The notes: a model not told the origin generated them from the letters alone. A stretch of 64,000 nucleotides of DNA from Bacteroidales bacterium (GCA_007132995.1 SLNP01000015.1:5329-69328), one strand, 5' to 3'; shown: positions 918 to 14,202, numbered from the stretch's first letter. Program-made: numbers and translations.

Positions 918-931
918 AGCATATATATTGC

Positions 932-949
932 TTGTTACATAAATAACAA
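932..949. promoter_or_regulatory. Rex-operator-like perfect palindrome TTGTTAcataaaTAACAA in the divergent hydrogenase promoter region
   Basis: The 6-6-6 inverted repeat was read directly. It matches 12 of 14 defined positions of the Clostridial-type Rex box TTGTTAAnnnnTTAACAA (consensus from memory). A third TAACAA hexamer is at 961..966. A rex gene is encoded 8 kb downstream. Confidence 0.4.
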
Positions 950-976
950 TGTTTATTCGGTAACAATAATTATTCA

Positions 977-984: not shown

Positions 985-1012
985 GTCGCACACAATAGTA
1001 ATATGAGTAATA

Positions 1013-1483
1013 ATGACAGATAGCGTTGAGAAAATAGTCTCCTCCTATAAGAGCGGCAGGAGGGAGGATCTTATACCAATTCTTCAAAAGATACAAGAGG
1101 CCGTCGGATATATTCCGGAGGAGGCGATAGTGGCTATCGGGAATAAGCTTAAAATAAGTACCACAAAGATATATGGGCTGGCCACCTTTTATGATCAGTT
1201 CAGGTTTTTCCCACAAGGGAAGATACATATAACTATATGTAATGGTACAACATGCTATATTAACGGAGCCTCAGATGTTATAGAGGCTGTAAGGGAGTTT
1301 GTGGGTACTGAGCCCGGTGATACATCGCGCGATAAGTTGTTCAGCTACGAGGTAACAACCTGTGTCGGCGGGTGCCACTCCTCTCCTGTTATTCTTGTAA
1401 ACGGAGAGTATCACGCCCCTGTAACACCGGAGAGTATTTCCGAGATGCTGAGCAAACTCAGAGTTGTAATCGAAAATGAGTGA
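1013..1483 (+). CDS. nuoE: NuoE-like [2Fe-2S] subunit of a multimeric NAD(P)H-linked [FeFe] hydrogenase (HydC/HndA type)
   Basis: 156 aa. Motifs ICNGTTCYINGA...TTCVGGCHSSPV give the Cx4C...Cx3C pattern of the NuoE family. It overlaps the next gene through a stop/start GTGA. Confidence 0.85.
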   Translation: MTDSVEKIVSSYKSGRREDLIPILQKIQEAVGYIPEEAIVAIGNKLKISTTKIYGLATFYDQFRFFPQGKIHITICNGTTCYINGASDVIEAVREFVGTEPGDTSRDKLFSYEVTTCVGGCHSSPVILVNGEYHAPVTPESISEMLSKLRVVIENE

Positions 1484-3426
1484 TAAGCCCGATGGATGAT
1501 ACTATAAAGAGTTTTTTAACTGAAAAGGTACTGCTTGCCGGTAGTGATACCCTGCCGCCGGAGGTGGAATCGAGACTTGAACTTATAAGGCGCGACAGGG
1601 TCGATAATCCGGTGATATTTGTCTCATATGGAACAGCAGCTGTTATATCGGGTGCCGACAGAACAGTAAGGGCGATAGAAGAGTTCCTGGAAGAGAGCGG
1701 CTCTGATGCCATCACCGTAAAGGCACGGTGCGATGGCCCCGCCGACTACGAACCCATGGTCGGTATTCAGATGCCGGGAAAAAACCGGCTTCTCTTCAGA
1801 AATGTGACTGATGAGAAGGTCGACTCTCTTCTTAACTCAGTATTTCATTCAGATATTCCTGCCGACGACCTTGTGGGACAGGCAGGGGCCAGAGGTTTTG
1901 TGAAATGGCATGGAATCACCTTCCTCTCAGAGCTACTCTGGTATGCCCTGCAGAAAAGAGTGGTTACCGAATCGGAGTGCTGGTACACCCCCGAAAATAT
2001 TGAGGAGTATATAGCAAGAGGAGGTTACCGATCTTTTGTAAAGACAATAAGACACTACACCCTTGAAGAGGTGTGCGACATAATAGAGAAGAGCGGACTG
2101 AGGGGTAGAAGCGGAGGAGGATTCCCGACAGGACAGAAATGGAAGAGTGCCCTCAATACATCTTCCAACACAAAGTACCTTATATGTAACGCAAAAGAGA
2201 GCGATCCGGGGGGATATACAGACAGGGTGCTGATTGAGAATGATCCTCACAGAGTTATAGAGGGAATTGCCATAGCGGCATATGGAACCGGTGCTACATC
2301 GGCCTATATCTATCTGCGAGCAGGCGCCCGGATAGCACAGCGGCGCCTTGAAGAGTCTATCGCAAGGGCCAGGGAGTACGGTCTGCTGGGTCATAACATC
2401 TTTTCCAGTGGCTTTAACCTTGATATCACCGTGGCAATGGAGGCTGGAGCCTTCGTGTGCGGAGAAGAGACAGCCCTGATAGGCAGTCTGAGTGGCAAAA
2501 GGGGCATGCCTGAAATTAAACCGCCATTTCCCGCCCACTCGGGACTCTTCGGAAAGCCAACAGTAATAAACAATGTTGAGACATTGATGAATGTGCCCAA
2601 AATTATGTCTCACGGGCCTGAATGGTTTCGTGAAACCGGATCTGAAAATAGTAGCGGTACCAAGGTTCTGGCTCTCGGAGGCAGAACTGTAAGATCGGGT
2701 ATTGTAGAGGTTGAGATGGGTACTACGCTGAAAACTATATTTGAAGAGATAGCCGGTGGCGTTGCTGACGGAGGTGAGCTGAAGGCCCTGCAACTGGGTG
2801 GTGCCCTTGGATCATTTATTGATCCGGAGATGCTGGAGACTGAACTTGACTTCGAATCTATGGCATCGGCGGGGGCCGGAATAGGCTCAGGCAGCTTTAC
2901 AACAATTGGAGACGATACCTGTGTTGTAGATCTTGTCCGATACTACATGGACTACCTCCATAGCGAGAGCTGTGGTAAATGTATTCCCTGCCGTGAAGGT
3001 ACCGGAAGAATGTCTGAGATTCTGCGTGGCATTACCGAGAAACCGGATGATACCGGAGAGGGAACCCTGGAAAGATTTAAGGGTGTCATGCAGCTTGAAA
3101 CGATAGCAGAGGTTATGAATGAGACCTCCCTTTGCGGACTGGGACAGAATGCCCCGAAACCATTTCTCTCTGCCATTAAAGCTTTCCGCGATGAGTTCGA
3201 ACAACACATCTTCGACCGTAACTGCAGTGCCAATGTTTGCCGGGAACTGAGACGGTTTGTGATCGATGTGGAGAAGTGTACCGGATGCACTGCCTGCGCC
3301 TCCAGGTGCCCGGTAAACGCGATATATGGAACCAGATTGCAGCCATTCTTTATCGTTGAGGATAAATGCATAGGCTGCGGACTATGCTATGAGGTATGTA
3401 AGTTCAGTGCAATATCAGTAAAGTAG
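1480..3426 (+). CDS. nuoF: NuoF-like flavoprotein subunit (HydB/HndC type) with a C-terminal 2x[4Fe-4S] ferredoxin domain
   Basis: 648 aa. FMN/NADH motifs are GRSGGGFPTGQKWKS and CNAKESDPGGYTDR. The NuoF cluster motif is CGKCIPCREG...SLCGLGQ. The C-terminal ferredoxin motifs are CTGCTACASRCP and CIGCGLCYEVC. The start is GTG at 1480; an alternative ATG is at 1492. Confidence 0.85.
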   Translation: MISPMDDTIKSFLTEKVLLAGSDTLPPEVESRLELIRRDRVDNPVIFVSYGTAAVISGADRTVRAIEEFLEESGSDAITVKARCDGPADYEPMVGIQMPGKNRLLFRNVTDEKVDSLLNSVFHSDIPADDLVGQAGARGFVKWHGITFLSELLWYALQKRVVTESECWYTPENIEEYIARGGYRSFVKTIRHYTLEEVCDIIEKSGLRGRSGGGFPTGQKWKSALNTSSNTKYLICNAKESDPGGYTDRVLIENDPHRVIEGIAIAAYGTGATSAYIYLRAGARIAQRRLEESIARAREYGLLGHNIFSSGFNLDITVAMEAGAFVCGEETALIGSLSGKRGMPEIKPPFPAHSGLFGKPTVINNVETLMNVPKIMSHGPEWFRETGSENSSGTKVLALGGRTVRSGIVEVEMGTTLKTIFEEIAGGVADGGELKALQLGGALGSFIDPEMLETELDFESMASAGAGIGSGSFTTIGDDTCVVDLVRYYMDYLHSESCGKCIPCREGTGRMSEILRGITEKPDDTGEGTLERFKGVMQLETIAEVMNETSLCGLGQNAPKPFLSAIKAFRDEFEQHIFDRNCSANVCRELRRFVIDVEKCTGCTACASRCPVNAIYGTRLQPFFIVEDKCIGCGLCYEVCKFSAISVK

Positions 3427-3430
3427 GGCC

Positions 3431-5146
3431 ATGCAGATTACTATAGAGGTGAATAACAGGAAGATAAAGGCTGAAAAAGGTGAGACTATTCTGTCAGCCC
3501 TTAACAGAAACGGAATCCTTATCCCTACACTCTGCCGGATGAGAGACTTTACCCCTACCGGGGCATGCAGGATGTGCGTGGTAGAGGTGGAGGGTAGAGA
3601 TCGCCTCGTAACTGCCTGCTCGCAACCGGTAGAGGAGTGGATGCGTATTATGACCCACTCGCAGAGAGTTATCAGATCAAGGAAGACGATAGTGGAACTT
3701 CTGCTCTCAAATCACCCCGATGACTGCCTCTACTGTAACAGGAATCTTAACTGTGAATTGCAGCGCCTGGCTGAAGAGCTCAATATTAACGAGAGACGCA
3801 TACGGGGTAAGAAGATTCAGATGAGGCTTGACCAGTCGAGTCATTCGGTGGTCAGAGAGCTCTCAAAGTGTATTCTGTGTGGCAGATGTATCAGGGTATG
3901 TGACGAAATTGTAACCGCAACAACCCTCGGATTTCTTAACAGAGGGAAAACTGCGCATGTTGGTACAGCAATGGACAGGGACTTTAACTTCTCCAGCTGC
4001 CTCAACTGCGGGCAGTGTATATTGGTATGCCCTACCGGCGCACTTCATGAGAAGCACAATACCACTGAGGTAATGGAGTCTCTTAACCGCGACAATGTAA
4101 CCAATGTGATATGCTACTCTCCGGCGGTGCCCTGCGCTGTAGCCGAAATAATGGGATTAAAATACTCGAAAGAGTTCGACCTTGTGCTTAATGCGGTGTT
4201 GCGCCAGATAGGATTCGATAAGGTATATAACTGCGGTTTTGCCACCGACCTCTATATAGACAAGGCAGCAAGGTCACTCTATAGCAGTGTAAAGGAGGGC
4301 AGAAGAGAGACAACATACCTCTCTGCATGTCCGGCATGGCTGAAGTATGCCGAACAGAAGCTGCCCGGGGAAATCGGATCTCTCTCAACCCTGAAAATAC
4401 CGCAGCAGATTGCCGGAGCTATTGTTAAGGGTGTTGTTGCAGAAGATATCTCCGGGGGCAATTCAGAGATATTTACTGTCTCTGTTACTCCATGTACCGG
4501 AATGAAGTTTGAATCGCGCCGTGACGGAATGACCAGGAAGGGGGTTAGTGATATTGATGCAGTAATTACTGTTACCGAACTCTCGAGGCTTATAAGACTT
4601 TTCGGTGTTGATATTACCAGCCCCTCCGGAGAGCCGGCCGATGCTCCGATGAATATCAGAAGCTCTTCGGCTCTCCTTACTGAGGTTTCAGGTGGCTATA
4701 CCGAAGCAATTGTACGCTCTCTTATGCACCTGAGTGGTTCAGGTGAACCGGAGAAGAAAATTTTCAGGAAGCTTCGTAATAACCATGGATTCAGAGATTT
4801 GTCGCTTGCTATTGGTGATGAACAGTACAGTTTCGCTATCGTGGATGGTCTGCACTCACTCGAAAGACTCAATGCAGAGATCAGTGGCGGTAAAAGTTAC
4901 GATATTGTTGAGGTCATGGTGTGCCCCTCCGGATGCGTTCACGGTGGGGGGCTGGCCTTTTTCTCTTCCAAAGAGGTTCTCAGAACAAGAGCTAGACAGA
5001 TATATGCCACGGAAGAGTCCGAGGCTGTTAATACCGCCTCGCGCTCACCTGCCCTGCTCTCATTTTATGAGGAGTATGGAGATTTTAGTGATGAGCGGGG
5101 AGAGATACTTCACACCAAATACAATGCACGCGATGTGCTGCTTTAA
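3431..5146 (+). CDS. hydA: [FeFe]-hydrogenase large subunit, M3 architecture ([2Fe-2S] + His-ligated [4Fe-4S] + 2x[4Fe-4S] + H-domain), with a non-canonical L1 motif
   Basis: 571 aa. N-terminal cluster motifs: CRMRDFTPTGACRMC, HPDDCLYCNRNLNC, CILCGRCIRVC and CLNCGQCILVCP. H-domain motifs: LSACPAW (L1), VTPCTGMKFE (L2) and EVMVCPSGCVHGGG (L3). Confidence 0.85.
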   Translation: MQITIEVNNRKIKAEKGETILSALNRNGILIPTLCRMRDFTPTGACRMCVVEVEGRDRLVTACSQPVEEWMRIMTHSQRVIRSRKTIVELLLSNHPDDCLYCNRNLNCELQRLAEELNINERRIRGKKIQMRLDQSSHSVVRELSKCILCGRCIRVCDEIVTATTLGFLNRGKTAHVGTAMDRDFNFSSCLNCGQCILVCPTGALHEKHNTTEVMESLNRDNVTNVICYSPAVPCAVAEIMGLKYSKEFDLVLNAVLRQIGFDKVYNCGFATDLYIDKAARSLYSSVKEGRRETTYLSACPAWLKYAEQKLPGEIGSLSTLKIPQQIAGAIVKGVVAEDISGGNSEIFTVSVTPCTGMKFESRRDGMTRKGVSDIDAVITVTELSRLIRLFGVDITSPSGEPADAPMNIRSSSALLTEVSGGYTEAIVRSLMHLSGSGEPEKKIFRKLRNNHGFRDLSLAIGDEQYSFAIVDGLHSLERLNAEISGGKSYDIVEVMVCPSGCVHGGGLAFFSSKEVLRTRARQIYATEESEAVNTASRSPALLSFYEEYGDFSDERGEILHTKYNARDVLL

Positions 5147-5187
5147 AGGTAAACATCACCGGCAGAACAGTTGTTGATAACTGAAGG

Positions 5188-7170
5188 GTGGTAAAAGAGA
5201 TACAGAGTATGTTGGTATATACAATAAAAGAGCTTTGCAGAACATGCTATACCTGTGTAAGGGAGTGCCCTGCAAAGGCTATTAGAATAGTAGGCGGACA
5301 GGCTGAGGTTATCGAGGACAGGTGTATTGCCTGCGGCAACTGTACCAAAGTATGCAGCCAGGGGGCGAAGGTTTTTCTGAAAACAAACGATAAGGTTGAA
5401 AGGTTGCTCGATTCCGACAGGGAGGTTGCAGCTATTGTTGCACCGAGCTTCCCGGCCGAGTTTCAGGAAGCACCCACCCATAAACATCTGGTTGGAATGG
5501 TTCGTGCCCTGGGTTTCAATTATGTGTCGGAGGTCTCTTTCGGCGCAGATCTGATTGCGGCAAAGTACAGGGAGTTGCTTGCAAAAACTCCCGGGGGAAC
5601 CTATATCAGTTCTGACTGCCCTTCGATAGTGAACTTTATTAGATTCTATCATCCTCATCTGGCACCGAACCTGGTTCCTCTTGTCTCGCCCATGGTTGCC
5701 ATGATGAAGGTTGTGAGAAGCATGTATGGCGAGGATACCCCGGTGGTTTTTATCGGACCCTGCGTGGCAAAAAAATCGGAGAGCAACACTCTCGATGCGG
5801 CTATAACATTTCTGGAGCTGAGAGAGATGTTTGAGGGCAGGGGTATAACCGCCGATAATATTGAACCTTCGGAGTTTGACCCTCCTCTGGGAGGCAAGGG
5901 TGCAATTTTTCCTGTTACCAGAGGCCTGCTTCAGACCGCCGGTATAAGTGATGATGCCATTACAGGAAACATTATTGCGGCCGAAGGCAGAATCGATTTT
6001 CAGGAGGCGATAAAAGAGTATGAGGCAGGAATGATAAGTCAACATCTGGAGCTGCTCTGCTGTGAGGGATGTATAATGGGCCCCGGCCTTTCGAGAAAGG
6101 GGAAGCCCTATAACAGAAGGGTGCTGGTAAGCAAGTATGCTCAGAGCAAAATGGAAGACTTTGACCTAAGGCAGTGGGAAAAGGATATAGAGAGGTTTTC
6201 CGGACTCGATTTCTATATTAAACATCTGCCCGATGACCACAGGAGGCTTATGCCATCGAAGGATGACCTTAAGGAGGTTCTGGAGTCAATGGGCAAATTT
6301 ACAGATAAAGATCACCTTGATTGTGGTGCCTGTGGATATGAAACCTGTATGGAACATGCCGGTGCCATAAAGCATGGCCTTGCCGAGGTGGAGATGTGCC
6401 TGCCTTATATAATTGAGAAGCTGCACAAGTCGGTTGAGGATCTGGCCCTCTCGAACAAAAAACTGACCACAATGCAACAGGCTCTCAAGCAGTCTGAAAA
6501 ACTTGCCCATATGGGTCAGCTATCTGCCGGAATTGCTCATGAACTCAACAATCCTCTTGGGGTTGTAATAATGTACAGCAACCTGCTTCTTGAGGAGGAG
6601 GGAACCAGTGACCAGTTGAAAGAGGATCTTAAACTGATAGTAGAACAGGCCGGAAGGTGCAAGAAGATAGTGGCAGGACTTCTCAATTTCGCCAGAAAGA
6701 GCCAGGTGAACCATCAGTCTATCAATATGAGGGAGTTTATAGAGCAGGGTCTCGATAGCCTTATATTGCCGGAAAATGTGAATGTGGTAATTAACGACCA
6801 TACGACAAATCCAAACCTGATGGTCGACACCGAACAGATGACTCAGGTTGTTACCAATATTATTAAAAATGCCTATGAGGCCATGCCTGATGGTGGTGAT
6901 ATAACCATTACCATTGAGGATAGCTTCGGCGATGTCTCGTTTGTAATAGCCGATACTGGAAGCGGGATAAGACAGGAGGATCTCTCCAAGGTCTTCGAAC
7001 CCTTCTTTACTACCAAACCTATTGGACTGGGTACAGGCCTGGGGCTCGCTACAACATACGGTATAGTAAAGATGCATAAGGGACAGATAACCGTCGAGTC
7101 AAACTGTGACCCGGAGAAAGGGCCAACAGGCACAAGCTTTAAAATAATACTACCCAGAAGAAGAGAGTAG
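5188..7170 (+). CDS. Fusion of a sensory-type [FeFe]-hydrogenase domain with a histidine kinase (group C1-like, putative H2 sensor kinase)
   Basis: 660 aa. Motifs in order: CRTCYTCVRECP and CIACGNCTKVC; SSDCPS / IGPCVAKKSE / LLCCEGCIMGPG; CGACGYETC-x16-C; H-box GIAHELNNPL; N box NIIKNAYEAM; G boxes DTGSGI and GTGLGLA. The start is GTG at 5188 or ATG at 5209. Confidence 0.8.
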   Translation: MVKEIQSMLVYTIKELCRTCYTCVRECPAKAIRIVGGQAEVIEDRCIACGNCTKVCSQGAKVFLKTNDKVERLLDSDREVAAIVAPSFPAEFQEAPTHKHLVGMVRALGFNYVSEVSFGADLIAAKYRELLAKTPGGTYISSDCPSIVNFIRFYHPHLAPNLVPLVSPMVAMMKVVRSMYGEDTPVVFIGPCVAKKSESNTLDAAITFLELREMFEGRGITADNIEPSEFDPPLGGKGAIFPVTRGLLQTAGISDDAITGNIIAAEGRIDFQEAIKEYEAGMISQHLELLCCEGCIMGPGLSRKGKPYNRRVLVSKYAQSKMEDFDLRQWEKDIERFSGLDFYIKHLPDDHRRLMPSKDDLKEVLESMGKFTDKDHLDCGACGYETCMEHAGAIKHGLAEVEMCLPYIIEKLHKSVEDLALSNKKLTTMQQALKQSEKLAHMGQLSAGIAHELNNPLGVVIMYSNLLLEEEGTSDQLKEDLKLIVEQAGRCKKIVAGLLNFARKSQVNHQSINMREFIEQGLDSLILPENVNVVINDHTTNPNLMVDTEQMTQVVTNIIKNAYEAMPDGGDITITIEDSFGDVSFVIADTGSGIRQEDLSKVFEPFFTTKPIGLGTGLGLATTYGIVKMHKGQITVESNCDPEKGPTGTSFKIILPRRRE

Positions 7171-7227
7171 ATAGCGGGCACCGTGCAGGGTTGCCCTTAA
7201 TTACAATAAAATGACAATCTTTGCAGA

Positions 7228-7623
7228 ATGAATAAGAGTGATTACACCATACTGGTCGCCGATGATGATCCCGACTATCTTTTTCAGACCGTTAACGGCC
7301 TGAAAATGGCCGGATACAATACTGTGGCAGTAGAGAGCCAGGCAGAGGCAGAATCTCTGCTAGAGAGACTTAGACCGGATCTTGCCGTCTTTGACCTTAT
7401 GATGGAGAGTGATGACAGTGGCTTTGTTCTCTGTTATAAACTTAAAAGGAAGTACCCCGATGTTCCTGTCATTCTTGCCACCGCAGTTTCACATGAGAGA
7501 GGGCTCTCATTTGCACAGGATTCGGTAGGTGAGAGATCGTGGATAAAGGCCGACAGGTATCTTGAGAAGGGTATAAGGCCTGAGCAGCTGGATCAGGAGA
7601 TAATGAAACTGCTAAAGATTTAA
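7228..7623 (+). CDS. Stand-alone response-regulator receiver (REC only, no output domain)
   Basis: 131 aa. Receiver residues: ILVADDDP, acceptor region LAVFDLMM, ILATAV and LEKG. Confidence 0.8.
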   Translation: MNKSDYTILVADDDPDYLFQTVNGLKMAGYNTVAVESQAEAESLLERLRPDLAVFDLMMESDDSGFVLCYKLKRKYPDVPVILATAVSHERGLSFAQDSVGERSWIKADRYLEKGIRPEQLDQEIMKLLKI

Positions 7624-7624
7624 T

Positions 7625-8767
7625 ATGGCTGTAATAAAGGTTGTTGTTGTAGATGATGAACCCGGAATAAGATCGGGAGTTACCAGAATACTCAGAGACT
7701 TTACGGTAACCTATCCCTTTATGGATGAGGATTTCTCTTTTGAAATAATAGAGGCCTCTACCGGAGAGGAGGGTATTGAGATACTTGAAAGGGATAACCC
7801 GGAGATAATGCTTCTTGATAACAAGCTGCCGGGCATACAGGGTATAGAGGTTCTTGACTACATAAGGAGAAGCGGACATGATACCATGGTGGCGATGATA
7901 ACCTCTTATGCATCTATAGATATTGCAGTTAGAGCCACCAGCGACGGGGCAACCGACTTTATTCCCAAACCTTTCACCCCGCAGGAGCTTAAAGCCTCGG
8001 TCGAGAATATCACAAAGCAGATGTATCTCAGGAACATTACCAATAAACTGAAGAGAGAAGGGGTAAAGGTGCGGTATCAGTTTTTGTCGGTACTTTCTCA
8101 TGAGCTAAAGGCACCACTCTATGCCATAGAGGGCTATCTGCAATCTATGCTCGGGAAGGAGTCGGGAGAAATGGTAGATGACTATGTAACACAGATTGAG
8201 AGGTCAATGCAGCGGATAAAGGGGATGAGAAGCCTTATCATGGACCTGCTCGACTTTTCCAAGACGCGCCTTGAGAAGAGAGAGGATAAGATTGAGCGGG
8301 TAGACCTGAAAAAAATAGCGGAAGAGGCAATAGTTACGGTTCAGCCATATGCTATTCAGAGAGATATAACCTTCAGCCTTGAGTGTAAATGTGAATCGAC
8401 AGTGATGGCCGATCCTGCCGATATGGAGATAATATTCAACAATCTTCTCTCTAACGCTGTTAAGTTTAACAGAGATAAGGGAGAGGTCACTATTGAGATA
8501 GACGGCTGCAGCAAACTCTTTACGGTCAGGGTGTCTGATACAGGTATCGGTATGGCCGAAGAGGAGCTTGATGAGATATTTCAGGAGTTTTACCGCATAA
8601 AGGGTGATGAGACCAAAGAGATAAAGGGCAGCGGACTGGGACTCAGTATTGTAAAGAAGGTAACAGAGCTATATGGTATTGATATAAAGGTCGAGAGCAA
8701 ACCGGGCGAGGGCTCTTGCTTCACCCTTCTCTTTCCGCGCGAAAAGGGTAGGGAACTGCCCGATTGA
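7625..8767 (+). CDS. Hybrid receiver-histidine kinase (N-terminal REC + HisKA + HATPase_c)
   Basis: 380 aa. Motifs: VVVVDDEP, MLLDNKLPG, FIPKPF, H-box LSVLSHELKAPL, N box NNLLSNAVKFN, and G boxes SDTGIGM and GSGLGLSIV. Confidence 0.8.
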   Translation: MAVIKVVVVDDEPGIRSGVTRILRDFTVTYPFMDEDFSFEIIEASTGEEGIEILERDNPEIMLLDNKLPGIQGIEVLDYIRRSGHDTMVAMITSYASIDIAVRATSDGATDFIPKPFTPQELKASVENITKQMYLRNITNKLKREGVKVRYQFLSVLSHELKAPLYAIEGYLQSMLGKESGEMVDDYVTQIERSMQRIKGMRSLIMDLLDFSKTRLEKREDKIERVDLKKIAEEAIVTVQPYAIQRDITFSLECKCESTVMADPADMEIIFNNLLSNAVKFNRDKGEVTIEIDGCSKLFTVRVSDTGIGMAEEELDEIFQEFYRIKGDETKEIKGSGLGLSIVKKVTELYGIDIKVESKPGEGSCFTLLFPREKGRELPD

Positions 8768-8817
8768 AGATTTGGTGCTATAGCCGCCGCAATCCATTTA
8801 CATCAACTTTATACGAG

Positions 8818-9465
8818 ATGGTATCAAAGGGGAATTTACCGGCAAAGACTGTAGAGAGGCTTAGTGAGTACAGGAGAACTCTTCTTGACTCTCTTGAGGA
8901 GAAGAGAAGTTATATATTCTCTCATGAGCTTGCAGCGCTTCTGCATATCACAGCCGTGCAGGTGCGTCGCGACCTTATGCTTATAGGCTACTCCAGTGTG
9001 TTGAAGAAGGGTTATGATGTTCAGGAGCTTATCAATACCATTGGCGAAATTCTGGATTCCGATAAGGGGCTGAATGTAGCGGTAATAGGTATAGGTAATC
9101 TTGGCAGGGCGATAACCTCATACTTCAAGGGTAAAAGGTCTAAACTCAATGTGATTGCATCGTTCGACAACGACCCGGAGAAGATAAACAAGGTTATATC
9201 GGGAGTTAAATGCTATCCGATAAGTGATATGGGAGATGTTGTGAAGACTCTCGATGTATCGATAGTGATTCTTACGGTTCCTCCTGAAGAGGCTGCAGCT
9301 GTTGCAGAGGAGACTATCCGTTACGGAGTGAAGGGCATAATGAATTTTACAACGGTGCCCCTTAATGTGCCTCCCGGTATATTTCTTGAGCAGTACGATA
9401 TGATAACTTCGGTAGAAAAACTTGCCTATTTTGTAAAGGAGAGCAGCTCGCGGCTGAGTGGATGA
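8818..9465 (+). CDS. rex: Redox-sensing transcriptional repressor Rex
   Basis: The track ORF starts at TTG 8764; I prefer ATG 8818 (MVSKGNLPAKTVERLSEYRRTL...). It has a winged-helix N-terminus plus the Rossmann motif VAVIGIGNLGRAI, and the length of 215 aa is typical of Rex. Confidence 0.75.
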   Translation: MVSKGNLPAKTVERLSEYRRTLLDSLEEKRSYIFSHELAALLHITAVQVRRDLMLIGYSSVLKKGYDVQELINTIGEILDSDKGLNVAVIGIGNLGRAITSYFKGKRSKLNVIASFDNDPEKINKVISGVKCYPISDMGDVVKTLDVSIVILTVPPEEAAAVAEETIRYGVKGIMNFTTVPLNVPPGIFLEQYDMITSVEKLAYFVKESSSRLSG

Positions 9466-9531
9466 GATAGTGATGCCAGGGTGGCTTGTGGTCAGAGTAT
9501 GTAATGCCAGCAAAAAAGATTTAAAACTGTA

Positions 9532-10959
9532 GTGATGAAATTTTTTCCGGAAAAGCTGAATATTCCCGACAAAAGGATGAAACCATTTATCGACCCGGGC
9601 GAGATATGGGAACTGATAAGAGGTACCCCGGCCGATAAAGCGAGCGTGAAGGCTGTTATTGCCAAGGCTCTCGATAAAAACCGGCTTACCCTCAAAGAGA
9701 CAGCGATACTGGTAAATGCGACTGACAAAGATCTTATAGAGGAGATTAAGGAGGGTGCACGCGAGCTTAAGGAGAGGGTTTACGGCAACAGAATTGTGCT
9801 GTTTGCACCCCTCTATGTGGGTAACAGGTGCAGTAACGACTGCCGCTATTGCGGCTTTAGGGTTACCAACAGAAACGCCCTGAGAAAGACCCTGTCAGAC
9901 AAGGAGATAGTAACCGAGGTCGAGGCTCTGGAGGATAATGGACAGAAGAGGCTGATACTTGTATATGGAGAGCACCCCGAGTACTCGCCTGAATATATTG
10001 CCCACACCGTAGATCTGGTTTATGGTGTTAAAAAGGGAGCGGGTGAAATACGAAGGGTCAATATAAATGCTGCCCCTTTCGATATCGATGGTTTCAGAAC
10101 CATTGGGAAAGCAGGTATAGGTACATACCAGATATTTCAGGAGACCTACCATCCGGATGCATACAGAGAGTACCACCTGTCGGGCAGGAAGTCCGATTAC
10201 GAATGGCGTCTTACCGCCCTAGACAGGGCCCAGGAGGCTGGTATAGACGATGTTGGCATTGGTGCTCTCTTCGGGCTATACGACTGGCGCTTCGAGGTTC
10301 TTGGCCTTGTCCGGCATACCAACCATCTTGAGGCCTGTTACAATATAGGTCCGCACACCATCAGTTTTCCCCGTATAAAGGATGCTGCCGCCCTCGATAT
10401 TGACGGCAGATACATGGTGAGCGATGAGGAGTTTACCAGGCTGGTTGCCATACTCAGGCTGGCTGTCCCCTATACCGGACTCATACTGACTGCCCGCGAG
10501 GATAGTGATGTGCGCAGAGAGGTTCTTAAATTTGGGGTTTCTCAGATTGACGGAGGAACCAAAATTGAGATAGGCTCCTATTCCGACATAAAAAATGAGC
10601 AGCAGAATCTCAATAAGGAGCAGTTCAAAATTGCTGATGAGCGATCGCTTGCAGAGGTGATAGATGAGCTGCTTTCAACCGGATACCTTCCCTCTTTTTG
10701 TACCTCCTGCTACCGCATGGGAAGGACAGGCGAACACTTTATGGAGTTCTCAGTACCGGGGTTTATCAAGAGGTTCTGTACACCCAACGCCATTATGACG
10801 CTTGCTGAATATATATGCGACTATGCCGGGCCCGGGCTTGCTGAAAAAGGGTGGAAAGCAATAGATAAGGAGATGGAAAAACTCGATCCTCAGGTGGCTG
10901 AAAAGACCAGGGAGAGAGTCGAACTGATAAAAGGGGGGGAGAGAGATCTCTACTTCTGA
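9532..10959 (+). CDS. hydG: [FeFe]-hydrogenase maturase HydG (radical SAM tyrosine lyase)
   Basis: 475 aa. It has the radical-SAM motif CSNDCRYCGF and the C-terminal auxiliary-cluster motif CTSCYRMGRTGEHF...C. It sits in a hydrogenase context. Confidence 0.85.
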   Translation: MMKFFPEKLNIPDKRMKPFIDPGEIWELIRGTPADKASVKAVIAKALDKNRLTLKETAILVNATDKDLIEEIKEGARELKERVYGNRIVLFAPLYVGNRCSNDCRYCGFRVTNRNALRKTLSDKEIVTEVEALEDNGQKRLILVYGEHPEYSPEYIAHTVDLVYGVKKGAGEIRRVNINAAPFDIDGFRTIGKAGIGTYQIFQETYHPDAYREYHLSGRKSDYEWRLTALDRAQEAGIDDVGIGALFGLYDWRFEVLGLVRHTNHLEACYNIGPHTISFPRIKDAAALDIDGRYMVSDEEFTRLVAILRLAVPYTGLILTAREDSDVRREVLKFGVSQIDGGTKIEIGSYSDIKNEQQNLNKEQFKIADERSLAEVIDELLSTGYLPSFCTSCYRMGRTGEHFMEFSVPGFIKRFCTPNAIMTLAEYICDYAGPGLAEKGWKAIDKEMEKLDPQVAEKTRERVELIKGGERDLYF

Positions 10960-10981
10960 ATAGAACAGAGGAGCTGCCATT

Positions 10982-11518
10982 ATGATAAAGATTATTGGAA
11001 TAAAAGTAGTTGACCGGATTAAAGAGACCGGCTTTACCCAGAATGTGCTGACAAAGTATAGCGGAATGATAACCACACGGCTCGGTTTTCATGAGCTTAA
11101 TGACGGGGTATGCAGCCGCGAAGGATATATTCTACTTCATATGAAAGGCGATCCTGCCGACTGGGAGGAGATGGAGAGCGAACTCAGCTCTATCGGTGGT
11201 ATCGAGGTGCTGGAGATGGACTTTAGAGATAAAGCGCCAGATGCCGTTCAGTCGGGCAATGCAGCACAGGGCGGCACCAGAATAATAGGGGTGCTTGTGA
11301 AAAAAGGAGATACTGATATAGCCATGCTGCAGAAGACATTAACAATGTATGGCTGCTCTATAAGAACACGCCTTGGCGTTAATGAGTCTCACTTCGGAGA
11401 GTCCGCGGGCCTCATACTGCTTGAGCTTTTTGGTGATGTGAGTGAGATGGATCGGCTTGAAGCAGACCTCAGGGGGTGCGGTAACTGTATAGTAAGAAGA
11501 ATGACCTTCGGCAGATAG
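10982..11518 (+). CDS. Tandem-duplicated TM1266-like 'iron-only hydrogenase system regulator' (two ACT/NikR-C-like ~80-aa units in one chain)
   Basis: 178 aa. Unit A: IIGIKVVDRIKETGFTQNVLTKYSGMITTRLGFHE...ILLHMKGD. Unit B: IIGVLVKKGDTDIAMLQKTLTMYGCSIRTRLGVNE...ILLELFGD. Its position next to hydG matches the TIGR03959-type family (family recalled from memory). Confidence 0.6.
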   Translation: MIKIIGIKVVDRIKETGFTQNVLTKYSGMITTRLGFHELNDGVCSREGYILLHMKGDPADWEEMESELSSIGGIEVLEMDFRDKAPDAVQSGNAAQGGTRIIGVLVKKGDTDIAMLQKTLTMYGCSIRTRLGVNESHFGESAGLILLELFGDVSEMDRLEADLRGCGNCIVRRMTFGR

Positions 11519-11536
11519 CAATCTGCCTGAAGGTCA
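11502..11536. terminator. Strong hairpin between convergent genes (candidate bidirectional terminator)
   Basis: TGACCTTCGGCAGAT-agca-ATCTGCCTGAAGGTCA forms a 15-16 bp stem with one bulged A. It overlaps the stop codon of the 10982..11518 CDS. Confidence 0.5.
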
Positions 11537-11562
11537 CCTTCCTGTAACATGTTCTGCCGGAG

Positions 11563-14115
11563 CTACCTGATAGTGTGCCCGAAGAAAATCGAGTTCATAA
11601 ATATTCTGTCTGTTCCGTACCAGATGGCCCTGAAGTTGGTGTCCTCATAGAGTGATATAACCCTGCCACCCGAAACATGAGCGGTCGCGAATGCCGCTCC
11701 GGCCACTCTCTCAATGTTCTCATCGGTTACATATCCGCTTAGCAGAGGTGTATCGGTAAACCTTATCGGTGTGTTGAATATATCTCTGCCCGGTTCATAA
11801 AGCGATGCTCCACGCTTGAAAACAGGCAGTTCATCCCTGTAGTATCCGTAGCAGAGAGGGTGTGTCAGATCCATCACCGCATTGAAGATGGTTCCGGGGA
11901 TGTTGTGTGGCGATCTGGACCTGTCACCGTAAACCGGATTTTCCGGGGCGGGATTCCTTACACCCGGTATGGTTGTGGTGGTAATGAAGTTGTTTCTCGC
12001 CAGCCAGCCGTTGCCTCCCTTGTAACCTATTATCACTCCACCGGCACGATTCCACTGTCTGAGCGATTCCACCCCCCGCTCACTGATATTTGGTGAGCCG
12101 GCAATAATAATAACATTGTACCTGTCGGTCGAGATGTTGTTGAATCTCTGCGTTGGCACCAGTGTTACGGGTATATTGTAACGAACATCGAGCAGGTTCC
12201 ATATCTCTCCGGCATCCCTGCTGTTAATGCCAGAGTCAACCATCAGGGCAATTGACGGCCGGCGAAGCAGTGTAAAGCTTGAACTGCCAAGATCAGCCCC
12301 CTGGGTAGGTGTAAGCCCGGTTGTTGTTCCAAATATCTCGGTGTTGTATCTTCCCGCTACCTCACTGAGGTAGTTGTTGAGCTCATCCCTCTCCATCGGC
12401 TGGTCGAAGGCGTGTATCATAATGGTGCCATTGGGAAAACTCCTGCGCAGGCTGCCATCATCGACAGAGAAGGGCTGTGTGGCCACCCTGATAGTCAGGT
12501 CTGCATCGAGAAGCGTGAAGAGGAGAGAGTAGGAGAGGTAGTCGTTCATTTCGAAGAGGTAGGCGTATGTCTCTGCATCTGCGCTTAGCCTGCCTTGGTT
12601 TATTGCTGGGGCAGCGGCTACAACCTCACCCTTCAGGTCGGCGACAGCCCTTGACTCTCTTACCTCTGCGAAGGGTATATTGAACGACATCGCTACATTC
12701 CATGCCGAAATATCGTAGAACCTGGTTCCCTCAAACTCAAAAATCGGCTCGAAAAGAGACTTAACAAACCTGTAGGCAGGCTGTTCGGTCGGTATAAGGT
12801 AGCTCTGCCCTGCCTTAAAGGTTATCCCGTCGACGGTAATGTCTCTCTCAATATTGTGAATTTCAATTTGATGCTGTAGCAGGTGGTCAATAAAGAAGGA
12901 GAGCTTAGATTTATCATCGGGTTCGGTAAAGAGATATCCCTTTACCGGATCTTTCCGGGCCTCTTCAATCGCAGAAATATAGAAATCTCTCTGAAACTCA
13001 AGCAGCCTTGTACCCATCGCAAGGGCAGCATCTGTTGTTGAGAGCGCCATGGTAAACTGATTCCTGATGGCAAAGGGGAATGACAACAATCCCGATGCAA
13101 TTTCACGGAGATGTGACTTCGGCCCTCCCTGCTCTATCAGAATACCGATCGAACCATGAAGGTCAGGATATGAAGAGCCATAACCCGGATACAGGTTGTC
13201 AAAGATCTCCTCCTGAAAGTAGAGGCTACCTATCCTGTCCATATGTTTGGCATGGAATTTTGCGATCTCTGCGGTAAGGTCATAATTCTTTTGGGGAACA
13301 ACAGGGTTGTTGGCCAGAGGATCGCCCGGCTCCCAGAAAAAGGTCGAGTTAGCACCCATCTCATGCTGGTCCATAACAATAGTGGGGAACCACCTGTGAA
13401 ATGCAGCAACCCTTCCCCTGCTCTCGGGGTGCTGAAGCATCAGCCAGTCACGGTTAAGGTCGAACCAGTAGTGGTTAGTCCTTCCTCCCGGCCAGGGCTC
13501 ACTGAATACCCGTGAGTTGGGATCTGCTATCGGATCTACACTCCTGTGCATATTTACCCATGTAGAGTGCCTGTGGTAGCCGTCGGGGTTCATGTTGGGG
13601 TCGATAAGAATTACTGTGTTGGCCAACACCTCGTCAATCTCACTGCCCATACCTGCAACAAAATGGTAAGCCGCAACAAGAGATGCATTCTGTGCACTCG
13701 ACTCATTACCATGAACACCATAAGCCAGTTTGATTATTACCGGCATTTCAGAAATGTTGAGCGATGGCGAAACCTCCGGGTCTCTTAGCTGAAGATGCCG
13801 TTGCCGGATACCCTCAATATTTCTGATGTTTTCCGGAGAGCTTACAATGAGCTTGCCAAGAGCTCTCTGCTGATGACTCCTGGCATACTCCTTCCATACA
13901 GCGCGATCAGAAAGACGCGCCATCTCTTTCATGTAGAGTATAAGGTTGTCATGGGTAGCATGCCACTCGCCCACCTCATGACCGATAATATCTGCCGGAA
14001 CCGGTATGGCCGGATCGTAACTCACATGCTTTGGGAGATAGTAGCTCAGGGATACCTGTGCACCAAGCATTAAGGGGAGCAGCAGCAGCGGAATAGTTGA
14101 AAGAAGTCTCTTCAT
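11563..14115 (-). CDS. Secreted M14-family zinc carboxypeptidase-like protein, paralog A (850 aa)
   Basis: It has a signal peptide. M14 motifs: HGNESS (HxxE), DPNMNPDGY, LNRDW, DQHEMG and GILIEQ. A long C-terminal non-peptidase region follows. Confidence 0.8.
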   Translation of the reverse strand: MKRLLSTIPLLLLPLMLGAQVSLSYYLPKHVSYDPAIPVPADIIGHEVGEWHATHDNLILYMKEMARLSDRAVWKEYARSHQQRALGKLIVSSPENIRNIEGIRQRHLQLRDPEVSPSLNISEMPVIIKLAYGVHGNESSAQNASLVAAYHFVAGMGSEIDEVLANTVILIDPNMNPDGYHRHSTWVNMHRSVDPIADPNSRVFSEPWPGGRTNHYWFDLNRDWLMLQHPESRGRVAAFHRWFPTIVMDQHEMGANSTFFWEPGDPLANNPVVPQKNYDLTAEIAKFHAKHMDRIGSLYFQEEIFDNLYPGYGSSYPDLHGSIGILIEQGGPKSHLREIASGLLSFPFAIRNQFTMALSTTDAALAMGTRLLEFQRDFYISAIEEARKDPVKGYLFTEPDDKSKLSFFIDHLLQHQIEIHNIERDITVDGITFKAGQSYLIPTEQPAYRFVKSLFEPIFEFEGTRFYDISAWNVAMSFNIPFAEVRESRAVADLKGEVVAAAPAINQGRLSADAETYAYLFEMNDYLSYSLLFTLLDADLTIRVATQPFSVDDGSLRRSFPNGTIMIHAFDQPMERDELNNYLSEVAGRYNTEIFGTTTGLTPTQGADLGSSSFTLLRRPSIALMVDSGINSRDAGEIWNLLDVRYNIPVTLVPTQRFNNISTDRYNVIIIAGSPNISERGVESLRQWNRAGGVIIGYKGGNGWLARNNFITTTTIPGVRNPAPENPVYGDRSRSPHNIPGTIFNAVMDLTHPLCYGYYRDELPVFKRGASLYEPGRDIFNTPIRFTDTPLLSGYVTDENIERVAGAAFATAHVSGGRVISLYEDTNFRAIWYGTDRIFMNSIFFGHTIR

Positions 14116-14162
14116 AGTCCGTTAGATTTGTTTTGGTTATAGTTTATTGTTGCGGCTATGCC

Positions 14163-14192
14163 TGCCGGCAATGCAACCTGGCACTGCCGGCA
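14163..14192 (-). terminator. Inter-paralog hairpin (two self-complementary TGCCGGCA octamers separated by 14 nt)
   Basis: Read directly. It lies 11 nt past the stop of the upstream (14203..16752) gene on the minus strand. There is no clear U-tract. Confidence 0.3.
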
Positions 14193-14202
14193 AGTATGCC
14201 TC

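What the first reader, a model, noticed from the sequence alone, without database searches (positions are those of the whole stretch)
7228..11518. H2/redox regulatory island with no DNA-binding response regulator, wedged between hydrogenase structural genes and maturases
These genes sit directly downstream of the sensor-kinase fusion, on the same strand, with gaps of 1-66 nt or overlaps:
- a REC-only protein (131 aa);
- a REC-HisKA-HATPase hybrid (380 aa);
- Rex (an NADH/NAD+ sensor);
- hydG;
- a doubled TM1266-like 'hydrogenase system regulator'.

Neither receiver carries an HTH, GGDEF, CheY-partner or other recognisable output domain. The transcriptional or enzymatic output of the putative H2 signal is therefore not evident.

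Inference: the arrangement suggests a branched or multi-step relay (kinase -> REC-kinase -> ?), possibly converging with Rex or the ACT-like TM1266 protein. That would integrate H2 partial pressure with NADH/NAD+ ratio to control hydrogenase expression or maturation. I do not know of a characterised system with this composition.
Basis: inference. Interest (0 to 1): 0.8.

Follow-up and report, generated by a model that had tools for sequence, protein, structure and literature searches.

The report
Hydrogen-sensing phosphorelay inside a Rex-controlled hydrogenase operon
These genes form a widely conserved but uncharacterised signalling module: a hydrogenase-like sensor fused to a kinase, a bare receiver protein and a receiver-kinase, all inside a hydrogenase operon that the NADH sensor Rex appears to repress, which makes the open question of how [FeFe] hydrogen sensors pass on their signal testable.

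Summary
REC-only (7228-7623), REC-HisKA-HATPase (7625-8767), Rex, HydG and a doubled TM1266-like protein follow hydCBA and a HydS-histidine-kinase fusion on one strand.

- **Conservation.** In Bacteroidales loci with enough flank, REC is present in 73/73, REC-HK in 68/68 and Rex in 65/65. HydG and TM1266x2 are an optional add-on (40/58 and 36/57).
- **Wider spread.** The triad HydS-HK1 / REC1 / REC2-HK2 recurs at about 45-57% identity in Acidobacteriota, Planctomycetota, Hydrogenedentota and unassigned contigs. No DNA-binding response regulator lies next to it in any of them.
- **DNA-binding regulator.** The island does encode one: Rex. Twin Rex boxes at 932-966 sit on the Bacteroidota-type promoter upstream of hydC and are conserved in 54/54 loci. 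The operon therefore looks Rex-repressed and autoregulated.
- **Signal order.** One lineage joins HydS directly to HK2 and keeps only a stand-alone REC1 paralog. Another fuses REC1 onto HydS-HK1. This suggests HydS -> HK1 -> REC2-HK2 -> a REC1-family receiver.

The output of the phosphorelay is probably protein-protein rather than a missing HTH regulator, but its target is unknown. The fusion is HydDB group C1 and the Rex neighbourhood has been noted before. The relay itself is uncharacterised.

The parts
932..966 (.). Two tandem candidate Rex operators: TTGTTAcataaaTAACAA (932-949, a perfect palindrome) and aTGTTTattcggTAACAA (949-966). They share one base, so they are 17 nt apart.
   Evidence: The perfect match is unique in the 64 kb; 8 matches at up to 2 mismatches were found and none of 100 shuffles reached that number. 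A position weight matrix built from orthologous sites ranks these two as the top hits in the window, at 17.2 and 14.6, with the next at 9.0. A twin-box pair is present in 54/54 related loci at the same distance from hydC. The consensus equals the Clostridiaceae-type Rex box TTGTTAANNNNTTAACAA, which was validated by DAP-seq and EMSA (PMC8457756).
977..984 (+). TATATTTG, a Bacteroidota-type -7 promoter element (TAnnTTTG) 10 nt downstream of the second Rex box.
   Evidence: Read directly from the sequence. TAnnTTTG occurs within 120 nt upstream of hydC in 51/54 related loci, always just after the Rex boxes. The consensus itself is from my own knowledge of Bacteroides promoters.
1013..5146 (+). 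hydC (1013-1483), hydB (1480-3426) and hydA (3431-5146): an electron-bifurcating-type [FeFe] hydrogenase (HydABC / BfuABC).
   Evidence: Pfam and NCBIfam matches. The best solved relative of HydA is T. kivui HydA1, 8a6t, E = 5e-114.
5209..7170 (+). HydS-HK1: two [4Fe-4S] motifs, an H-cluster domain, a Cx2Cx4Cx16C motif, a helix of about 35 residues, then HisKA (H444) and HATPase. There is no PAS domain.
   Evidence: Pfam. 7,410 homologs have E <= 1e-20, and all 120 listed have the same fused architecture. H-cluster cysteines, H444 and the N/G boxes are invariant. Asp136 sits at the position of CpI C299 in 81/81 orthologs.
7228..7623 (+). REC1: a stand-alone receiver of 131 aa (D12/D13, D56, T85, K114).
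   Evidence: Pfam Response_reg only. The catalytic residues are invariant in 72 orthologs, which are 65-81% identical to the window's protein. About 46-50% identity is retained across phyla. All stand-alone and HydS-fused receivers in related systems fall in this family.
7625..8767 (+). REC2-HK2: an N-terminal receiver (D65, K115) followed by HisKA (H159) and HATPase.
   Evidence: Pfam. Motifs are invariant in 66 orthologs. The gap to REC1 is 1 nt here and has a median of 1 nt in 72 loci.
8764..9465 (+). rex: a redox-sensing repressor. The ORF runs from a TTG at 8764; the likely start is the ATG at 8818.
   Evidence: NCBIfam Rex, 195 bits against a cut-off of 126. Pfam finds Put_DNA-bind_N plus CoA_binding. 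The GIGNLG motif and the recognition-helix region are conserved in 67 orthologs.
9532..10959 (+). hydG: the radical-SAM H-cluster maturase. It is a variable add-on to the operon.
   Evidence: TIGR03955, 487 bits. It follows rex in 40/58 related loci.
10982..11518 (+). A tandem-duplicated TM1266-like (CPF_0552 family) protein. It travels with hydG and its function is unknown.
   Evidence: NCBIfam NF052672 matches in two stretches, 131 bits. The halves are 34% identical. It is present in 36/57 loci. No match by sequence in the PDB.

Best explanation
The region is the regulatory half of one long operon: hydC-hydB-hydA-hydS/HK1-REC1-REC2/HK2-rex, here extended by hydG and a doubled TM1266-like gene. 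Two independent sensing modules meet on it.

**1. Rex (shown by sequence and conservation).** Rex is the DNA-binding regulator. Two tandem Rex boxes overlap the -33/spacer region of the hydC promoter. When NADH/NAD+ is low, Rex should repress the whole operon, including its own gene. When NADH rises, it should release the promoter.

**2. The phosphorelay.** The HydS domain is an H-cluster protein whose terminal 4-Cys cluster is wired through a single helix to a histidine kinase. It starts a phosphorelay made only of transmitter and receiver domains.

**Most likely order (inferred).** HydS sets HK1 autophosphorylation. HK1 phosphorylates REC2, which gates HK2. A stand-alone REC1-family receiver is the terminal acceptor, fed by HK2 and probably also directly by HK1.

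**Output (inferred).** REC1~P has no effector domain in any lineage, so it most likely acts by binding a protein. Candidates are the HydABC enzyme, Rex, or the transcription machinery. A DNA-binding partner that was overlooked is less likely.

**Net logic (inferred).** NADH/NAD+ sets transcription, and H2 feeds back through the relay.

hydG and the TM1266-like gene are maturation cargo of the operon, not part of the relay.
For: **Operon and Rex**
- All genes lie on the same strand with short or overlapping junctions. The median REC1 to REC2-HK2 gap is 1 nt.
- The perfect palindrome at 932-949 plus an adjacent box are the only strong sites in the 64 kb.
- The twin boxes are present in 54/54 loci and the -7 box in 51/54. 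Together they are the only strongly conserved block at the hydC end of the intergenic region.
- The motif equals the validated Rex consensus. Rex regulons elsewhere include the hydrogenase operon, hydG and the TM1266-like gene.
- In Hydrogenedentota, rex is the first gene of the equivalent operon and is again preceded by two TGTGA-type boxes 17 nt apart.

**The relay as a unit**
- REC is present in 73/73, REC-HK in 68/68 and Rex in 65/65 loci, while the genes after rex vary.
- The triad is retained with each part about 39-57% identical in Acidobacteriota, Planctomycetota, Hydrogenedentota and unassigned contigs.
- All phospho-acceptor and catalytic residues are invariant.

**Signal order**
- P0143/L087/L088 is a natural deletion. 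HydS is joined directly to HK2: its last 251 aa are 78% identical to residues 125-375 of the REC-HK of a sister lineage. It is followed only by REC3, which is 77% identical to that lineage's REC3 and is a REC1 paralog.
- True one-ORF hybrids HydS-HK1-REC1 exist (P0142, L089, L090), as does an N-terminal REC1-HydS fusion (P0252).
- The REC2 family occurs only in front of HK2.
- Weak family-level support: HK1 is most like AtoS and REC2 most like LuxO/NtrX/AtoC receivers. HK2 is most like PnpS/PhoR and REC1 most like RpaB/OmpR receivers.
Against: - No experiment shows H2 sensing, phosphotransfer or Rex binding for any member.
- The two kinds of natural variant point to different donors for REC1 (HK1 in the hybrids, HK2 in the deletion derivative). 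The wiring is therefore not uniquely determined.
- Rex is absent from the operon in several phyla that keep the triad, so the relay does not depend on an operon-encoded Rex.
- An orphan DNA-binding regulator elsewhere in the genome cannot be excluded from a 64-kb window or from 20-kb loci.
- HydS carries Asp at the proton-relay position, and the CpI C299D variant is catalytically active (my recollection). The domain may therefore turn over H2 rather than only sense it.
- The intergenic regions are AT-rich, and a short second operator could be hidden in them.
Confidence: 0.6

Rival explanations
1. The relay ends on an orphan DNA-binding response regulator encoded elsewhere in the genome. HK2 phosphorylates that regulator, and REC1 is only a phosphate sink or a modulator.
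For: HK2 has every catalytic motif. Neither the window nor the 20-kb loci can show the rest of the genome. Single-domain receivers acting as sinks are well known (my knowledge, for example LovR and CheY2).
Against: None of the ~65 Bacteroidales loci with enough flank (screened only by similarity to the window's proteins), nor the more distant loci examined, has a DNA-binding RR next to the system. The minimal natural system, HydS-HK2, is followed only by a stand-alone REC1-family receiver. REC1 is among the most conserved genes of the cluster at 65-81% identity, which is unusual for a mere sink. Only Rex boxes are conserved at the promoter.
Confidence: 0.2
2. The wiring is RedCDEF-like and incoherent. 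HK1 phosphorylates REC1, which is the output. HK1 also phosphorylates REC2, which switches HK2 into a phosphatase for REC1~P. The system then works as a timer or adaptation device rather than a cascade.
For: The domain composition mirrors Myxococcus RedC / RedF / RedD-RedE, where the second kinase-like protein dephosphorylates the stand-alone receiver (PMC2755868). The hybrid HydS-HK1-REC1 proteins point to direct HK1 to REC1 transfer.
Against: HK2 keeps intact N, G1 and G2 boxes. It must be the phosphodonor in the HydS-HK2 + REC3 lineage. Its H-box reads HELKA or HELKS, so it lacks the Thr/Asn at H+4 that HisKA phosphatase activity usually needs (the sequence is; the rule is from my knowledge).
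Confidence: 0.13
3. HydS-HK is mainly a structural or catalytic subunit of the hydrogenase complex ('BfuT'). The kinase and receivers adjust enzyme activity or assembly, not gene expression.
For: The gene always follows hydA directly, and PMC11406978 treats it as a T subunit. In Bacteroidales, HydS has Asp at the relay position while HydA has Ala there.
Against: There is no biochemical evidence for a T subunit; this rests on annotation only. Solved HydABC complexes consist of A, B and C (my knowledge). HydS-HK variants also occur away from hydABC (L087-L090). This rival overlaps the main explanation, which also allows a post-translational target.
Confidence: 0.07

Closest known systems
Putative sensory [FeFe] hydrogenases, group C/D (T. 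maritima HydS, T. mathranii HydS); HydDB subgroup C1, 'histidine kinase-linked'
   Same: Two N-terminal [4Fe-4S] motifs. An H-domain with all cluster-ligating cysteines. The proton-relay Cys is lost and M353/M497 are replaced (Gly and Leu here). A C-terminal Cx2Cx4Cx16C motif is present. The gene sits in the same operon as a bifurcating group A hydrogenase. The Petrimonas mucosa homolog is already classified as C1.
   Different: There is no PAS domain; the 4-Cys domain is joined by one helix to HisKA-HATPase. Asp is invariant at the relay position in Bacteroidales, where other phyla have Ser or Thr. The characterised HydS proteins are not kinase fusions, and their signalling partners are unknown.
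[NiFe] regulatory hydrogenase systems (HoxBC-HoxJ-HoxA of Cupriavidus necator; HupUV-HupT-HupR of Rhodobacter capsulatus)
   Same: A hydrogenase-like H2 sensor coupled to a histidine kinase that controls hydrogenase genes. The comparison is from my knowledge; PMC8163306 mentions HoxJ.
   Different: The sensor is a non-homologous [FeFe] protein, and it is fused to the kinase rather than bound to it. The receiver is not an NtrC-type DNA-binding activator. A second receiver-kinase is interposed.
Rex regulons of anaerobes (Clostridia, Caldicellulosiruptor, Thermotogales)
   Same: The same repressor family and the same box, TTGTTAANNNNTTAACAA. The same kinds of target: the bifurcating hydrogenase operon, hydG, the TM1266-like gene and rex itself.
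   Different: Here rex lies inside the hydrogenase operon, next to a two-component relay. Twin boxes 17 nt apart sit on a Bacteroidota-type promoter. I found no description of a Rex regulon for this Bacteroidota clade.
Myxococcus xanthus RedCDEF 'four-component' system
   Same: It is built only of kinases and receivers, with no effector domain. A stand-alone receiver is the output, and a receiver feeds a second kinase-like protein.
   Different: It is not orthologous. RedE cannot autophosphorylate, whereas HK2 looks fully competent. RedD is a separate dual receiver, whereas REC2 is fused to HK2. The input is unrelated.

Membership tests
[FeFe] hydrogenase group C (putative sensory; HydDB C1) | An H-cluster binding domain with the four ligating cysteines (P1, P2, P3 motifs) | tested here: met
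   SSDCP, GPCVAKK and LLCCEGC are present. The cysteines are invariant in 81 orthologs.
[FeFe] hydrogenase group C (putative sensory; HydDB C1) | Loss of the proton-relay Cys (CpI C299) and replacement of M353 and M497 | tested here: met
   C299 becomes Asp (81/81 orthologs), M353 becomes Gly and M497 becomes Leu, by alignment to CpI and HydA structures. The criteria are taken from PMC8163306.
[FeFe] hydrogenase group C (putative sensory; HydDB C1) | A C-terminal four-Cys motif, Cx2Cx4Cx16C | tested here: met
   The sequence reads CGACGYETC-x16-C, and Pfam FeS (PF04060) matches at 2.6e-08.
[FeFe] hydrogenase group C (putative sensory; HydDB C1) | A PAS domain after the H-domain (the M2f type, as in T. 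maritima HydS) | tested here: not met
   Pfam finds no PAS domain. Only about 35 residues separate the FeS motif from HisKA.
[FeFe] hydrogenase group C (putative sensory; HydDB C1) | H2-dependent signalling | not testable with these tools
   This needs the maturated protein and kinase assays with and without H2.
Rex redox-sensing repressor | A family model above the curated cut-off, with winged-helix and Rossmann domains | tested here: met
   NF003995 scores 195 bits against a cut-off of 126. PF06971 and PF02629 both match. GIGNLG is conserved.
Rex redox-sensing repressor | A cognate palindromic operator at a regulated promoter | tested here: met
   Twin boxes at 932-966 are conserved in 54/54 loci and overlap the promoter.
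Rex redox-sensing repressor | NADH-sensitive DNA binding | not testable with these tools
   This needs an EMSA with NADH and NAD+.
Classical two-component system (kinase plus DNA-binding response regulator) | A receiver fused to a DNA-binding or enzymatic output domain | tested here: not met
   REC1 is a receiver only. REC2 is followed by a kinase. No other REC gene turned up among the window's ORFs of about 120 aa or more, and none carrying an output domain lies next to the system in the related loci.
Hybrid-kinase / Hpt multistep phosphorelay | A histidine phosphotransfer (Hpt) domain or protein | tested here: not met
   No Hpt family hit in any gene of the operon. The only related hit is a sub-threshold PF10090 match that lies inside the HATPase domain.
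RedCDEF-type four-component system | A second kinase-like protein that cannot autophosphorylate and acts as a phosphatase | tested here: inconclusive
   HK2 keeps its H, N, G1 and G2 boxes and is the only kinase in the HydS-HK2 lineage. Its activity has not been measured.
HydG maturase | The equivalog model above its cut-off | tested here: met
   TIGR03955 scores 487 bits against a cut-off of 312.
TM1266 family 'hydrogenase system regulator' | The equivalog model TIGR03959 above its cut-off | tested here: not met
   It scores 27.6 bits against a cut-off of 60.8, and Pfam TM1266-like scores 26.2 against 27. The related CPF_0552 family model is met twice, at 131 bits against 85.

The most novel reading that the evidence does not exclude
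The triad HydS-HK1 / REC1 / REC2-HK2 is an ancient H2-responsive phosphorelay found in several phyla. Its terminal stand-alone receiver acts after translation, on the bifurcating hydrogenase itself or on Rex, so that H2 partial pressure and NADH/NAD+ are combined without any DNA-binding response regulator. This would be the first defined signal path for a sensory [FeFe] hydrogenase. In Bacteroidales it may also come with a swap of active-site chemistry between 'HydA' (Ala at the relay position) and 'HydS' (Asp).
Probability: 0.3. Interest if true: 0.8.

Novelty: new variant of a known kind. Interest (0 to 1): 0.58.

Why it matters
How putative sensory [FeFe] hydrogenases pass on an H2 signal is unknown. 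The two that have been characterised have no defined partner.

Here the sensor is fused directly to a histidine kinase, so H2 sensing would have a simple biochemical read-out: autophosphorylation. The sensor also sits next to its likely partners in thousands of genomes.

The natural 'short-circuit' and fusion variants give a testable order for the relay. The conserved Rex boxes give a testable promoter.

These organisms are Bacteroidales and other fermenters from digesters, sediments and guts. The system probably governs when they release or take up H2, which is a key control point of anaerobic food webs.

Tried and rejected
- **Sigma-70 promoter and terminator scans.** Across 400-12000 they gave no more sites than shuffles. 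A strict Bacteroidota two-box pattern (TTTG...TAnnTTTG) had no match. Only the -7 element is recognisable.
- **phmmer with single REC domains** against all window ORFs was too insensitive; it did not even link REC1 to REC2. I used Pfam scans instead.
- **Rfam:** no RNA family in the window.
- **PDB by sequence.** Nothing for the TM1266x2 protein. Only generic receivers for REC1.
- **Partner assignment from best family matches** (AtoS/AtoC-like against PhoR/OmpR-like) separates the candidates by only a few bits and partly conflicts with the fusion evidence. I kept it as weak support only.
- **Rex boxes in the distant loci.** Found only in the Hydrogenedentota locus. The Acidobacteriota and other loci had no convincing site.
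- **Other Rex-like sites in the window.** None lies before hydG or hydE. The sites at 29268 and 22627 fall within the range of shuffles.
- **Organism name.** The cluster look-up returned no names. The nearest named relatives are uncultured Rikenellaceae/Bacteroidales MAGs at 78-81% identity.
- **Structure prediction** was not run. Orthologs taken from loci may not be submitted, and single-chain models would not test partner binding.

Full report
**1. What is in the window**

ORF listing and Pfam/NCBIfam scans give a single + strand array:
- hydC, 1013-1483 (NuoE-like)
- hydB, 1480-3426 (NuoF-like)
- hydA, 3431-5146 (bifurcating-type [FeFe] hydrogenase; best solved relative T. kivui HydA1)
- a HydS-histidine-kinase fusion, 5209-7170 (orthologs are 653 aa, so 5209 is the start)
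- a receiver-only protein, 7228-7623 (REC1)
- a receiver-HisKA-HATPase protein, 7625-8767 (REC2-HK2)
- Rex (ORF from 8764, likely ATG at 8818, to 9465)
- HydG, 9532-10959
- a tandem-duplicated TM1266-like protein of the CPF_0552 family, 10982-11518 (halves 34% identical)

Junctions are -4, 4, 41-62, 57, 1, -4/50, 66 and 22 nt.

Diverging from hydC are a small 2Fe-2S thioredoxin-like ferredoxin (519-764, minus strand) and a further [FeFe] hydrogenase gene that runs off the window start.

Downstream lie two M14 peptidase paralogs and hydE (16934-18031, minus strand). There is no hydF. No other receiver or response-regulator gene appeared among the ORFs of about 120 aa or more scanned across the 64 kb.

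**2. The gene order is conserved**

A scan of one genome per species found 248 genomes with a relative of the fusion. The 80 best are all Bacteroidales MAGs, several labelled Rikenellaceae or Rikenella, at 69-81% identity.

I mapped the window's proteins onto these loci. Among loci with enough flank:

| Gene | Present |
|---|---|
| HydA | 69/69 |
| HydB | 63/63 |
| HydC | 62/62 |
| REC1 | 73/73 |
| REC2-HK2 | 68/68 |
| Rex | 65/65 |

All are in the same order and on the same strand. The synteny breaks right after rex. HydG follows in 40/58 loci and the TM1266-like gene in 36/57. Otherwise peptidase, hydE or acetyl-CoA synthetase genes follow.

The conserved regulatory core is therefore HydS-HK1 / REC1 / REC2-HK2 / Rex. 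HydG and TM1266x2 are an optional maturation cassette. The same pair sits together and belongs to the Rex regulon in Clostridium thermocellum and C. bescii (PMC8457756).

The REC1 to REC2-HK2 junction has a median of 1 nt over 72 loci, which suggests translational coupling.

**3. The island does contain a DNA-binding regulator, and its operator is visible**

A perfect palindrome, TTGTTAcataaaTAACAA, lies at 932-949. A second box at 949-966 shares one base with it. A matrix built from orthologous sites ranks these two as the only strong sites in the window.

In 54 of 54 related loci where the fdx-hydC intergenic region could be extracted, the same twin boxes occur. They are 17 nt apart and usually about 55-90 nt upstream of hydC.

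They are followed after about 10 nt by TAnnTTTG in 51/54 loci (977-984 in the window). TAnnTTTG is the -7 element of Bacteroidota promoters (my knowledge).

In a multiple alignment of 51 intergenic regions, these elements are the only strongly conserved block near hydC.

The consensus is the Rex box TTGTTAANNNNTTAACAA, defined by Ravcheev et al. 2012 and validated by DAP-seq and EMSA (PMC8457756).

In a Hydrogenedentota locus, rex is the first gene of the equivalent operon. It is preceded by two TGTGA-type boxes, again 17 nt apart.

The straightforward reading is a Rex-repressed, autoregulated operon. It cannot be shown here that Rex binds the boxes or responds to NADH.

**4. The kinase/receiver triad is much older than Bacteroidales**

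A search of representatives at 50% identity found dozens of full-length HydS-kinase fusions at 36-50% identity. A second homolog search showed them in Planctomycetota, Acidobacteriota, Hydrogenedentota, Latescibacteria, Fermentibacteria, Marinimicrobia and Margulisbacteria.

Neighbourhoods examined:

| Lineage | Gene order |
|---|---|
| Thermoanaerobaculaceae | hydCBA - HydS-HK1 - REC(133) - REC-HK(373) - radical SAM |
| Planctomycetota | HydS-HK1 - REC(128) - REC-HK(393) - radical SAM - hydG - lyase - hydF |
| Hydrogenedentota | rex - hydCBA - HydS-HK1 - REC(130) - REC-HK(394) |
| Unassigned lineage | hydC - hydB(GltD-fused) - hydA - HydS-HK1 - REC(129) - REC-HK(375-384) - a third REC(127) - formate dehydrogenase |
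| Several metagenome contigs | the same triad, with a longer REC2-X-HK2 |

Each part is about 39-57% identical to the window's counterpart. No locus has a DNA-binding response regulator beside the system.

**5. Natural variants suggest the order of the relay**

- **(a) A deletion derivative.** P0143 and its relative P0271 (loci L087, L088) encode HydS joined directly to an HK2-type core. Residues 409-659 are 78% identical to residues 125-375 of the REC-HK in the sister lineage L083. The next gene is a 127-aa receiver, 77% identical to that lineage's third receiver. HK1, REC1 and REC2 have been deleted in one step. What remains is sensor - HK2 - stand-alone receiver. This places HK2 downstream of HydS and shows that its acceptor is a stand-alone receiver.
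- **(b) REC3 is a REC1 paralog.** In a tree of 26 receivers, all stand-alone and HydS-fused receivers form one family (REC1/REC3). REC2 forms a separate family found only in front of HK2.
- **(c) Fusions.** True one-ORF hybrids HydS-HK1-REC1 exist (P0142; L089 5246-7690; L090 ending at 10454). One protein carries a REC1-type receiver N-terminal to HydS (P0252). This argues for direct contact between HK1 and REC1-type receivers.
- **(d) Family-level matches.** HK1 is most like AtoS and REC2 most like LuxO/NtrX/AtoC receivers. HK2 is most like PnpS/PhoR and REC1 most like RpaB/OmpR receivers. This is weak support for HK1 to REC2 and HK2 to REC1.

Taken together, the model that fits all variants is: HydS -> HK1 -> REC2 (gating HK2) -> HK2 -> REC1, with HK1 probably also reaching REC1 directly. 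This is inference.

All phospho-acceptor and catalytic residues are invariant in 66-81 orthologs:
- REC1: D12, D13, D56, T85, K114
- REC2: D10, D11, D65, K115
- the phospho-acceptor histidines H444 (HK1) and H159 (HK2), plus the N, G1 and G2 boxes

HK2's H-box reads HELKA, lacking the Thr/Asn at H+4 usually needed for phosphatase activity in HisKA kinases (my knowledge). HK1 reads HELNN.

**6. The sensor domain**

HydS-HK1 has the features used to define putative sensory group C/D enzymes (PMC8163306):
- two N-terminal [4Fe-4S] motifs
- all H-cluster cysteines
- no relay cysteine
- M353 replaced by Gly and M497 by Leu
- the Cx2Cx4Cx16C motif

It lacks a PAS domain. About 35 residues link the 4-Cys motif to the HisKA H-box.

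The position of CpI C299 holds Asp in 81/81 Bacteroidales orthologs. The third-best PDB hit is the CpI chain 6glz, which reads TSDCP at this motif (I recall it as the C299D variant). Other phyla have Ser or Thr there.

HydDB already classifies the Petrimonas mucosa homolog as [FeFe] group C1, 'histidine kinase-linked', with its role unclear (PMC7768429). PMC11406978 describes the gene as a T subunit of BfuABC clusters in Hydrogenedentota, Calditrichota and Bacteroidota. Meheust et al. noted a kinase-fused group C hydrogenase with Rex nearby in Elusimicrobia.

None of these papers discusses the REC / REC-HK pair, the operators or the variants described here.

**7. How it most likely works, and what remains open**

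Shown by sequence and conservation:
- one operon
- a Rex family member, with conserved twin operators on the promoter
- an intact, deeply conserved kinase / receiver / receiver-kinase triad with no effector domain

Inferred:
- Rex represses at low NADH/NAD+.
- HydS modulates HK1 according to H2.
- The relay order is as given in section 5.
- REC1~P works by binding a protein.

The target of REC1 is unknown. HydABC, Rex and the transcription machinery are all candidates. The triad persists in lineages whose operon lacks rex, so Rex cannot be its only possible target.

Rivals, weighed in the rival list:
- an orphan DNA-binding regulator elsewhere in the genome
- RedCDEF-like wiring in which HK2 removes phosphate from REC1 (PMC2755868)
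- a mainly structural or catalytic role for HydS-HK

**8. Verdict**

The system is a new variant of known kinds: a group C1 sensory [FeFe] hydrogenase, a Rex regulon and a multi-kinase two-component network. It is very widespread but uncharacterised. Parts of it have been noted in the literature, so it is not categorically new.

Its value is that it turns the question 'how does a sensory [FeFe] hydrogenase signal?' into a set of direct experiments.

Noticed in passing
window 3431-5146 (HydA), residues 297-303: The bifurcating-type HydA has L-S-A-C-P-A-W. Ala sits at the position of the proton-relay Cys (CpI C299) in 68/71 Bacteroidales orthologs, and Thr replaces M353. HydA in the other phyla that carry the same triad has the canonical TSC[SC]PGW and MPC motifs. 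This would be expected to cripple the classical proton path.
   Followed up: partly
window 5209-7170 (HydS-HK), residue D136: The putative sensor has an invariant Asp (81/81) at that same relay position, where other phyla have Ser or Thr. Within Bacteroidales, the 'catalytic' and 'sensory' proteins thus appear to have exchanged relay chemistry. CpI C299D is reported to be active (my recollection).
   Followed up: partly
window 1-764 (minus strand): A small 2Fe-2S thioredoxin-like ferredoxin (519-764) and another [FeFe] hydrogenase (starting at 405 and running off the window) diverge from hydC. Both are conserved in nearly all related loci. Many orthologous intergenic regions carry a TACTTTTG -7 box and a TGTT-N8-AACA element on that side, which may be a third, weaker Rex site. 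I did not find it in the window itself.
   Followed up: partly
L087 714-3101; L088 1234-3621: A natural 'short-circuit' variant: HydS fused directly to the HK2-type kinase and followed by a single stand-alone receiver. In L087 the next gene looks RnfC-like from its N-terminus. This is the smallest version of the system and a convenient one for experiments.
   Followed up: yes
L089 5246-7690; L090 about 8001-10454, 10845-12251: A one-ORF hybrid HydS-HK1-REC1 in a high-GC lineage, not next to hydABC. In L090 it is followed by a GGDEF-domain protein and another stand-alone receiver, which hints at a c-di-GMP output in that lineage.
   Followed up: partly
L081 4842-8108, 14416-17145; L083 4957-7686: In one unassigned lineage HydB is fused to a GltD-like flavoprotein (1088 aa), and the triad plus a third receiver is followed by split formate dehydrogenase genes. 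The same relay may control a formate/H2 module there.
   Followed up: no
L085 10168-11225: The Planctomycetota locus carries a second HydS-like gene with HATPase domains N-terminal to the Fe-S and H-cluster domains. This is a further, different kinase-hydrogenase fusion.
   Followed up: no
window 11563-16752 (minus strand): Two adjacent paralogous M14 zinc-carboxypeptidase-domain proteins of 850 and 849 aa lie between the operon and hydE. A third M14 gene is at 45734-47506.
   Followed up: no
window 57001-64000 (plus strand): An open reading frame of more than 2,300 codons runs off the 3' end of the window. It was not characterised.
   Followed up: no
window 22627-22644 and 29268-29289: Weak Rex-like sites lie upstream of a 2-oxoacid:ferredoxin oxidoreductase cluster (TTGTTAACTGCCCCACAA) and of a DUF3078 gene. 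Their scores fall within the range of shuffled sequence, so they may be chance matches.
   Followed up: partly
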